Shown: piece after piece, positions 36,400 through 61,416 of the stretch
Layout: each line of letters opens with the position of its first letter
Numbering within the stretch: position 1 is the first letter of the stretch
Source: the human T2T-CHM13v2.0 reference genome, Homo sapiens
Length of the DNA: 64,000 nucleotides
NCBI RefSeq assembly: GCF_009914755.1
Contig: NC_060944.1
Reading direction: 5' to 3' (one strand)
Made by a program: the position numbers and the translations under genes
The notes under the pieces: model-generated
Databases searched by the model: none
What the model was told of the DNA's origin: nothing
The model's input: the letters and a program-made list of their open reading frames with translations, nothing else

Positions 36400-61416
<25,017 letters not shown>

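What the first reader, a model, noticed from the sequence alone, without database searches (positions are those of the whole stretch)
37361..37380. Triple-coded switch at the end of the 84-nt exon: four stops, three AUGs and a stop created only by splicing
Seen on the - strand: CTGTAATGATGATGAACTG|AAACTATG. In the ADNP frame it reads TAA TGA TGA TGA just two codons before the AUG, blocking any N-terminal extension. In a second frame it reads ATG ATG ATG AAC TG|A, a minimal uORF MMMN* whose stop is formed by the junction and ends 4 nt before the main AUG, too close for efficient reinitiation by general uORF rules. In the third frame it is C-N-D-D-E-L of the long uORF. Inference: including this exon adds a compact translational brake.
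Basis: partly seen in the sequence, partly recalled or inferred. Interest (0 to 1): 0.75.

Follow-up and report, generated by a model that had tools for sequence, protein, structure and literature searches.

The report
Tiny upstream ORF before ADNP start
A short ATG-ATG-ATG run at the end of a non-coding ADNP exon makes a four-codon mini reading frame that stops just before the real start codon; it probably dampens ADNP protein output somewhat, an ordinary kind of control that nobody has yet tested for this gene.

Summary
The sequence is as described. On the - strand the 84-nt ADNP leader exon (37444..37361) ends in a 10-nt ATG run. After splicing to the start-codon exon this gives TAA-TGA-TGA-TGA in the ADNP frame, followed by three sense codons, not two. 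It also gives three AUGs at -19/-16/-13 that open a four-codon uORF. That uORF's UGA is assembled across the junction and ends 4 nt before the main AUG.

The 'three codes' are one short repeat read in three frames, not three independent features. The window holds 13 such period-3 runs, and a longer ATG run lies in an intron.

The annotated leader has 9 upstream AUGs. They include a Ribo-seq-supported 21-codon uORF and a 97-codon uORF that overlaps the main AUG and stays in frame if the 84-nt exon is skipped.

Scanning rules predict that the run lowers ADNP initiation. No footprint call, reporter or conservation data support this, and C/EBPalpha reinitiates at 7-nt spacing. Mammalian conservation and inclusion levels of this exon could not be tested here.

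Verdict: a real, ordinary, undescribed uORF. The 'switch' is unproven.

The parts
37361..37444 (-). 84-nt non-coding exon 3 of the annotated ADNP transcript (28 codons long, so it never changes the frame of anything that reads through it)
   Evidence: Acceptor aag| behind a (TGTTTT)n tract, donor CTG|gtaagc. Single copy in the human genome.
37365..37374 (-). Perfect 10-nt period-3 run (ATG x3 plus A), the single element behind all three readings
   Evidence: one of 13 runs of 10 nt or more in the window.
37365..37376 (-). TAA TGA TGA TGA in the ADNP frame, at -21 to -12 of the spliced mRNA
   Evidence: list of frame-0 stops. Three sense codons follow before the main AUG.
37361..37374 (-). Four-codon uORF (M-M-M-N), with nested 3- and 2-codon versions. 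Its stop is T37362, G37361 plus A36596 of the next exon.
   Evidence: The unspliced reading gives one more codon and then the TAA of the intron.
36484..36596 (-). Start-codon exon. Its first base completes the uORF stop. Main AUG at 36591-36589.
   Evidence: Single copy. The mouse counterpart is itself alternatively spliced (passages).
36555..61416 (-). 97-codon upstream ORF in the third frame. It spans exons 2, 3 and 4 of the spliced mRNA, starts at AUG 61416 (second start 61326) and stops at 36557-36555, overlapping the main AUG.
   Evidence: It remains in frame (69 codons) in the model without exon 3. It is not listed in the Ribo-seq table rows found.
61344..61409 (-). 21-codon uORF in exon 2 with published ribosome-footprint support (catalogue id c20norep83, classed 'primatomorpha - young, de novo')
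   Evidence: One search gives the same peptide as the supplementary table row seen.
37449..37482 (-). Hexanucleotide microsatellite, (TGTTTT) about 5.7 copies, that forms the pyrimidine tract of the exon-3 acceptor
   Evidence: sequence.

Best explanation
The feature is a short ATG trinucleotide run at the 3' end of a 5'-UTR exon of human ADNP. In the spliced mRNA it forms an ordinary, very short upstream ORF with three tandem AUGs and four codons. Its UGA is completed by the first base of the start-codon exon and ends 4 nt before the main AUG.

Inferred mechanism:
- Scanning 43S complexes that reach position -19 meet three AUGs of the same context class as the main AUG, and many initiate there.
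- After two to four codons they terminate with the ribosome sitting over the main AUG.
- Only the fraction that leaks past all three AUGs, or that reinitiates within 4 nt, makes ADNP.

The net effect is a moderate reduction of ADNP synthesis from transcripts that carry the exon. It acts on top of the five upstream AUGs of exon 2.

Shown: the sequence, the frames, the junction stop and the other uORFs. Inferred: that the AUGs are used, the size of the effect, and any regulation by exon choice.
For: - Sequence and frames.
- AUG contexts G/A/A at -3 and A at +4, against A at -3 and T at +4 for the main AUG.
- With a per-AUG capture of 0.3 to 0.7, only 34% to 3% of scanning ribosomes would pass all three. 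This is simple arithmetic, not a measurement.
- Reviews state that short intercistronic distance lowers reinitiation (passages).
- No stable RNA structure hides the run: z = -0.46 for exons 3+4 and +0.22 for the 85 nt around the junction, against 200 mononucleotide shuffles each. There are 0 Rfam matches in 34000-39000.
- In the modelled leader without exon 2, the run is the only upstream AUG cluster apart from a weak-context two-codon ORF in exon 1.
- A neighbouring uORF of the same leader has published footprint support, so ribosomes do initiate in this leader.
Against: - No direct evidence of translation. ADNP is a host gene in only two rows of the tables searched (a 21-codon uORF and an internal ORF). 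The catalogue has a length cut-off that excludes four codons. ADNP does not appear as a host in the file that carries the 3-15-residue set (one occurrence, as an interactor). That set required at least 290 P-sites, so absence is weak evidence.
- The transcript carrying the exon is the selected reference transcript of a broadly expressed gene, so the brake cannot be tight.
- The C/EBPalpha uORF ends 7 nt before its AUG, yet a 'relatively high proportion' of ribosomes reinitiate there (passage).
- AUGs only 13-19 nt from the main AUG may compete less than distant ones (recalled from work on closely spaced AUGs, not checked here).
- ADNP is absent from a table of hyperconserved 5'-UTR elements: 0 occurrences in the one file held.
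- A similar, longer ATG run sits in an intron, where it can have no such role.
Confidence: 0.55

Rival explanations
1. Neutral microsatellite: the run arose by slippage. It is tolerated because very short uORFs allow efficient reinitiation and because AUGs this close to the main AUG compete poorly. The effect on ADNP output is negligible.
For: - 13 period-3 runs of 10 nt or more lie in the window, including a longer intronic ATG run.
- C/EBPalpha reinitiates at 7-nt spacing.
- The exon is in the selected reference transcript.
- The neighbouring exon-2 uORF is classed evolutionarily young and de novo, which suggests a leader that tolerates new AUGs.
- ADNP is not in the hyperconserved 5'-UTR table.
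Against: Three tandem AUGs, each with a purine at -3, are hard to bypass under the first-AUG rule. The 4-nt spacing is shorter than in the known permissive case.
Confidence: 0.3
2. Regulated splice switch. Tissue- or state-specific inclusion of the 84-nt exon is used by the cell to set ADNP dosage through this uORF.
For: - RefSeq variants differ only in the 5' UTR (passage).
- ADNP is listed among transcription-factor genes whose major isoform differs between brain and other tissues (passage; the isoforms are not named).
- Modelled leaders grade from 1 to 9 upstream AUGs.
- The acceptor is a weak-looking AAG behind a G-interrupted tract.
Against: - No source seen says that this exon, rather than the 175-nt exon 2, is the alternative one.
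- The overlapping 97-codon uORF persists without it.
- No isoform-specific translation data were seen.
Confidence: 0.12
3. The main effect is on mRNA stability. Termination at the uORF stop lies 112 nt and 205 nt upstream of two exon junctions, so the uORF could make exon-3 transcripts targets of nonsense-mediated decay rather than, or as well as, blocking initiation.
For: Geometry (exon 4 is 113 nt, exon 5 is 93 nt). The 50-55-nt rule is established knowledge.
Against: Very short uORFs followed by reinitiation commonly escape decay (general knowledge). The NMD review passages on ADNP concern only truncating variants in the last exon.
Confidence: 0.08
4. The in-frame stop run is the selected part: a fail-safe that closes near-cognate-initiated N-terminal extensions of ADNP.
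For: - Without exons 2 and 3 the ADNP frame is open for 96 codons through the GC-rich exon 1.
- With exon 2 but not exon 3, an in-frame CUG with G at -3 and G at +4 lies at -57. Exon 3 closes that frame.
Against: - 0 of 9 upstream AUGs are in frame.
- No strong-context CUG/GUG/ACG lies in the 117 open codons of the exon1-exon3 model or the 96 of the exon1-exon4 model.
- One stop would do the work of four.
Confidence: 0.05

Closest known systems
C/EBPalpha and C/EBPbeta uORF
   Same: A small out-of-frame uORF ends a few bases before the main AUG (7 nt for C/EBPalpha; passage in PMC3045505). Its use decides how many ribosomes start at that AUG.
   Different: There, ribosomes that miss the first AUG start at a downstream in-frame AUG and make a shorter protein isoform. 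In ADNP the next in-frame AUG is at +684, behind 13 out-of-frame AUGs, so no isoform choice is expected. The ADNP uORF has three tandem AUGs, and its stop is built by splicing.
HER-2/ERBB2 uORF
   Same: A short uORF close to the main AUG represses translation. The reference appears in the lists seen, and repression is stated in the passage. The spacing of about 5 nt is recalled, not seen here.
   Different: It has a single AUG, it is experimentally shown, and it is derepressed through 3'-UTR elements. Nothing of the kind is known for ADNP.
GCN4/ATF4-type delayed reinitiation
   Same: The ADNP leader also holds a translated short uORF (21 codons), followed by further AUGs and an ORF that overlaps the main start.
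   Different: The overlapping ORF starts 7 nt upstream of the 21-codon uORF's own AUG, and again 18 nt after that uORF's stop, rather than at a distance tuned for delayed reinitiation. The three-AUG uORF sits only 13-19 nt from the main AUG, so a ribosome that is late for one is late for the other. The arrangement does not fit the stress-inducible design.
Cassette 5'-UTR exons that carry upstream AUGs (general class)
   Same: A non-coding exon whose inclusion adds upstream AUGs to an otherwise clean leader. The modelled exon1-exon4 leader has 1 upstream AUG against 9 in the full leader.
   Different: None in kind. Whether this exon is really a cassette was not established here.

Membership tests
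AUG-initiated, non-overlapping upstream ORF (uORF) | AUG upstream of the main AUG in the mature annotated mRNA | tested here: met
   Three AUGs at -19, -16 and -13 of the spliced reference transcript.
AUG-initiated, non-overlapping upstream ORF (uORF) | In-frame stop before the main AUG | tested here: met
   The junction-spanning TGA ends 4 nt before the main AUG.
AUG-initiated, non-overlapping upstream ORF (uORF) | Ribosome footprints or initiation-site signal on the ORF | tested here: inconclusive
   It is not among the ADNP rows of the supplementary tables of PMC10032668. The catalogue cut-off excludes four codons, and the short-ORF set needed at least 290 P-sites. Raw footprint data could not be examined.
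Functional (selected) regulatory uORF | Conservation of the AUG(s), the stop and the spacing across mammals | not testable with these tools
   No vertebrate genome other than the window's own is held ('no relatives here'). The only indirect data are ADNP's absence from a hyperconserved 5'-UTR element table and the 'young' class of the exon-2 uORF.
Functional (selected) regulatory uORF | Change in main-ORF output when the uAUG is removed | not testable with these tools
   This needs a reporter or genome edit.
C/EBP-type isoform-selecting uORF | Short uORF ending within about 10 nt of the first main AUG | tested here: met
   4 nt, against 7 nt in C/EBPalpha.
C/EBP-type isoform-selecting uORF | Accessible downstream in-frame AUG that yields a truncated isoform | tested here: not met
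   The first in-frame AUG is at +684, after 13 out-of-frame AUGs.
Start-stop (AUG directly followed by a stop) element | No sense codon between AUG and stop | tested here: not met
   The shortest nested version still has one sense codon after its AUG (M-N-stop).
Poison exon (NMD-coupled cassette exon) | Exon inclusion puts a premature stop into the main coding frame downstream of the start codon | tested here: not met
   The exon lies wholly upstream of the main AUG, and its in-frame stops precede the start codon.
Alternatively spliced cassette exon | Transcripts with and without the exon | tested here: inconclusive
   The hub table lists only exons that are extra to the selected transcript. 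Reviews mention 5'-UTR variants and an alternative 'untranslated second exon' without coordinates. The primary paper is not held.

The most novel reading that the evidence does not exclude
The two non-coding exons form a four-step dial for ADNP dosage, with 1, 4, 6 or 9 upstream AUGs in the four modelled leaders. Within it, the splice-assembled three-AUG uORF makes ADNP synthesis depend on reinitiation after a two-to-four-codon ORF across a 4-nt gap. Factors that recycle and re-engage 40S subunits after very short uORFs (DENR-MCTS1 or eIF2D; recalled knowledge, and DENR is itself linked to neurodevelopmental disorders) would then control the level of a dosage-sensitive autism gene. Masking the run with an antisense oligonucleotide would raise ADNP from the intact allele.
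Probability: 0.1. Interest if true: 0.6.

Novelty: new member of a known kind. Interest (0 to 1): 0.28.

Why it matters
[quoted passage not shown] If the three upstream AUGs really hold back translation, two things follow.

First, variants that create, destroy or re-space them would be candidates when interpreting 5'-UTR variants in patients.

Second, the run would be a compact target for steric-block oligonucleotides meant to raise ADNP from the normal allele. That approach has been shown for other uORFs (recalled, not checked here).

In kind, however, this is an ordinary uORF. [quoted passage not shown]

Tried and rejected
- **Processed pseudogenes as fossils of spliced isoforms.** Exon 3, exon 4, exon 2 and exon 3 with flanks each match only themselves in the human genome. 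This also argues against a transposon origin of the exons.
- **Paralogue comparison.** The chr18 match (65% identity over 34 of 36 residues) has its start-codon exon beginning 13 nt before its ATG. I take it to be ADNP2, the one paralogue named. The leader is not alignable and shows no ATG run in the stretch read.
- **RNA structure or known RNA family at the site.** None was found.
- **Literature on translation of the ADNP leader.**
  - ADNP + uORF: 1 paper, whose uORF mention is a reference about NIPBL.
  - ADNP + 'upstream open reading': 3 papers with unrelated titles, seen in the listing only.
  - ADNP + translation efficiency + ribosome profiling + UTR: 1 paper, with nothing on the ADNP leader in its passages.
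  - ADNP + DENR: 2 papers with unrelated titles, listing only.
  - RefSeq accession search: 3 papers, none about transcript structure by title.
- **Papers and files not available.** The primary gene-structure paper and the Her-2 derepression paper are not held. Supplements of the bioRxiv preprint on conserved 5' UTRs are closed; its main text has 0 mentions of ADNP. These unseen supplements may list further ADNP ORFs or conservation scores.
- **Mapping the published internal ORF c20norep82 to the window.** A fixed coordinate offset failed and I did not pursue it.
- **C/EBP-like isoform choice and ATF4-like stress induction.** Both were considered and rejected on geometry.

Full report
**Observation**

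On the - strand the annotated 84-nt exon runs from 37444 to 37361. It has an aag acceptor behind a (TGTTTT)n tract and a CTG|gtaagc donor. The next exon begins at 36596 with five bases and then the ADNP start codon at 36591-36589.

I built the spliced reference leader from the hub's exon table, plus 36 bases fetched beyond the window end.
- four consecutive stops (TAA, TGA, TGA, TGA) in the ADNP frame at -21 to -12;
- three AUGs at -19, -16 and -13 in a second frame, followed by AAC and a TGA whose last base is the first base of the start-codon exon, 4 nt before the main AUG;
- a third frame that is part of a long upstream ORF.

One slip: three sense codons, not two, lie between the last stop and the AUG.

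**One element, not three**

All three readings come from a single perfect 10-nt period-3 run (37365-37374). Any ATG repeat reads as Met codons, stop codons and Asp codons in its three frames, so the 'triple code' carries no more information than the repeat itself.

- The 9-mer ATGATGATG occurs at two loci in the window (3 overlapping matches, 0.59 expected; 3 of 100 shuffles reached 3).
- The other locus is a longer run at 34096-34108 in an intron, on the same strand.
- The window has 13 perfect period-3 runs of 10 nt or more, 2 of them of this class.
- The 12-mer including the TAA is unique (0.01 expected).

The extra coincidence is that the exon ends in TG and the next begins with A. If the intron stayed in, the frame would close one codon later on the TAA of gtaa. 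If the start-codon exon were skipped, as happens in mouse (passages), the frame would run 16 codons into exon 5, out of the ADNP frame.

**The rest of the leader**

The 877-nt reference leader has 9 upstream AUGs, none in the ADNP frame.
- Exon 1 is 78% G+C and has one AUG in weak context in 613 nt.
- Exon 2 (175 nt) has five AUGs:
  - two open a 97/67-codon ORF that overlaps the main AUG and ends 37 nt into the coding sequence;
  - three open a 21/11/10-codon uORF.
- Exon 3 adds the three AUGs of the finding.

Exon 3 is 28 codons long, so the overlapping ORF stays in frame (69 codons) in a model without it.

Modelled leaders have the following upstream AUG counts:

| Leader | Upstream AUGs |
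|---|---|
| Full (exons 1-2-3-4) | 9 |
| No exon 3 | 6 |
| No exon 2 | 4 |
| Neither exon 2 nor exon 3 | 1 |

These three skipping forms are my models. The hub table does not say which of the other 11 transcripts, if any, has them.

**In-frame stops**

Exon 2 already holds four stops in the ADNP frame, and no upstream AUG is in frame. The run can therefore block only near-cognate starts. One in-frame CUG with G at -3 and +4 lies at -57 of the exon-3-less model, and exon 3 closes that frame. The other models have no such codon.

**Outside evidence**

- In the supplementary tables of PMC10032668, ADNP is the host gene of two catalogued Ribo-seq ORFs (passages). One is the 21-codon uORF of exon 2, with the same peptide as, classed 'primatomorpha - young, de novo'. 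The other is an internal ORF.
- Neither the overlapping ORF nor the four-codon ORF is listed there.
- That paper also called 221 ORFs of 3-15 residues from 96 human samples, with a floor of 290 P-sites (passages). ADNP appears in that file once, as an interactor, not as a host. One of the five files was cut when stored.
[quoted passage not shown] Which exon is meant is not said, and the primary paper is not held.
- A preprint lists ADNP among transcription-factor genes whose major isoform differs between brain and other tissues (passage).
- ADNP is absent from a table of hyperconserved human 5'-UTR elements: 0 occurrences in one file, whose format uses gene symbols.
- I found nothing in print on translational control of the ADNP leader.

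**Local checks**

- No Rfam family lies in 34000-39000.
- Predicted folding of exons 3+4 and of the 85 nt around the junction is no stronger than shuffles (z -0.46 and +0.22).
- Exons 2, 3 and 4, and exon 3 with 200-300 nt of flank, are single copy in the human genome. There is thus no processed pseudogene to reveal past isoforms and no sign of a transposon origin.
- The paralogue on chr18 has its start-codon exon beginning 13 nt before its ATG. An intron just upstream of the start codon is therefore shared by the two paralogues.

**Mechanism**

By the scanning model (established knowledge), a 43S complex arriving at -19 meets three AUGs with a purine at -3, the same class as the main AUG. For illustration only: a per-AUG capture of 0.3-0.7 lets 34% to 3% pass.

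Ribosomes that start there terminate after two to four codons while covering the main AUG. To make ADNP they must reinitiate within 4 nt. Reviews agree that short spacing disfavours this (passages). Yet the C/EBPalpha uORF ends 7 nt before its AUG and still allows a relatively high proportion of reinitiation (passage).

Those that miss the main AUG would meet 13 out-of-frame AUGs before the next in-frame one at +684. The C/EBP-style production of a shorter isoform is therefore not expected.

The stop also lies 112 and 205 nt upstream of two exon junctions, so some decay coupling is possible (inference).

I therefore expect a moderate damping of ADNP synthesis from exon-3 transcripts, layered on the larger load of exon 2. 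I hold this at about 0.55. A regulated switch has little support so far.

**What could not be done**

- Exon-inclusion levels, footprint tracks and isoform-resolved polysome data were also out of reach.

**Verdict**

This is a correctly read, real sequence feature. It is an ordinary short uORF in a leader that has several, in a clinically important gene. It is undescribed as far as my searches reach, plausible as a modest brake, and unproven as a switch.

Noticed in passing
window 37449-37482 (- strand): The pyrimidine tract of the exon-3 acceptor is a perfect hexanucleotide microsatellite, (TGTTTT) about 5.7 copies, ending in an AAG acceptor. Length variation here could change inclusion of the exon.
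   Followed up: no
window 34096-34108 (- strand, intron between exons 5 and 6): A second, longer ATG run (13 nt) lies on the ADNP sense strand in an intron. It serves as an internal control showing that such runs arise without a coding or leader role.
   Followed up: partly
window 61344-61416 (- strand, exon 2): Two AUGs 7 nt apart open a 97-codon ORF that overlaps the ADNP start and a 21-codon uORF. Only the latter is in the published Ribo-seq catalogue, classed as primate-lineage and de novo. The overlapping ORF should be the stronger brake, if it is used.
   Followed up: partly
window 37372-37377 (- strand): An internal GT in the context ACT|GTAATG lies just before the ATG run. If it were ever used as a donor, the whole run would be spliced out. 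It is not annotated and looks weak (no G at -1 or +5).
   Followed up: no
L004 1487-1610 (chr18 paralogue, taken to be ADNP2): The start-codon exon of the paralogue begins 13 nt before its ATG, against 5 nt in ADNP. The intron just upstream of the start codon is therefore shared, or nearly so, between the paralogues.
   Followed up: partly
window 36484-36596 (- strand): The start-codon exon itself is reported as alternatively spliced in mouse. FUS promotes its inclusion, and mTOR activity changes it (passages). Without it the junction stop of the mini-uORF is not formed, and the ATG frame runs 16 codons into exon 5.
   Followed up: partly
window 63424-64000 plus 36 nt beyond (- strand, exon 1): Exon 1 is 78% G+C with 93 CpG and a single AUG in 613 nt. 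In a leader lacking exons 2 and 3 the ADNP frame would be open for 96 codons upstream of the start.
   Followed up: partly
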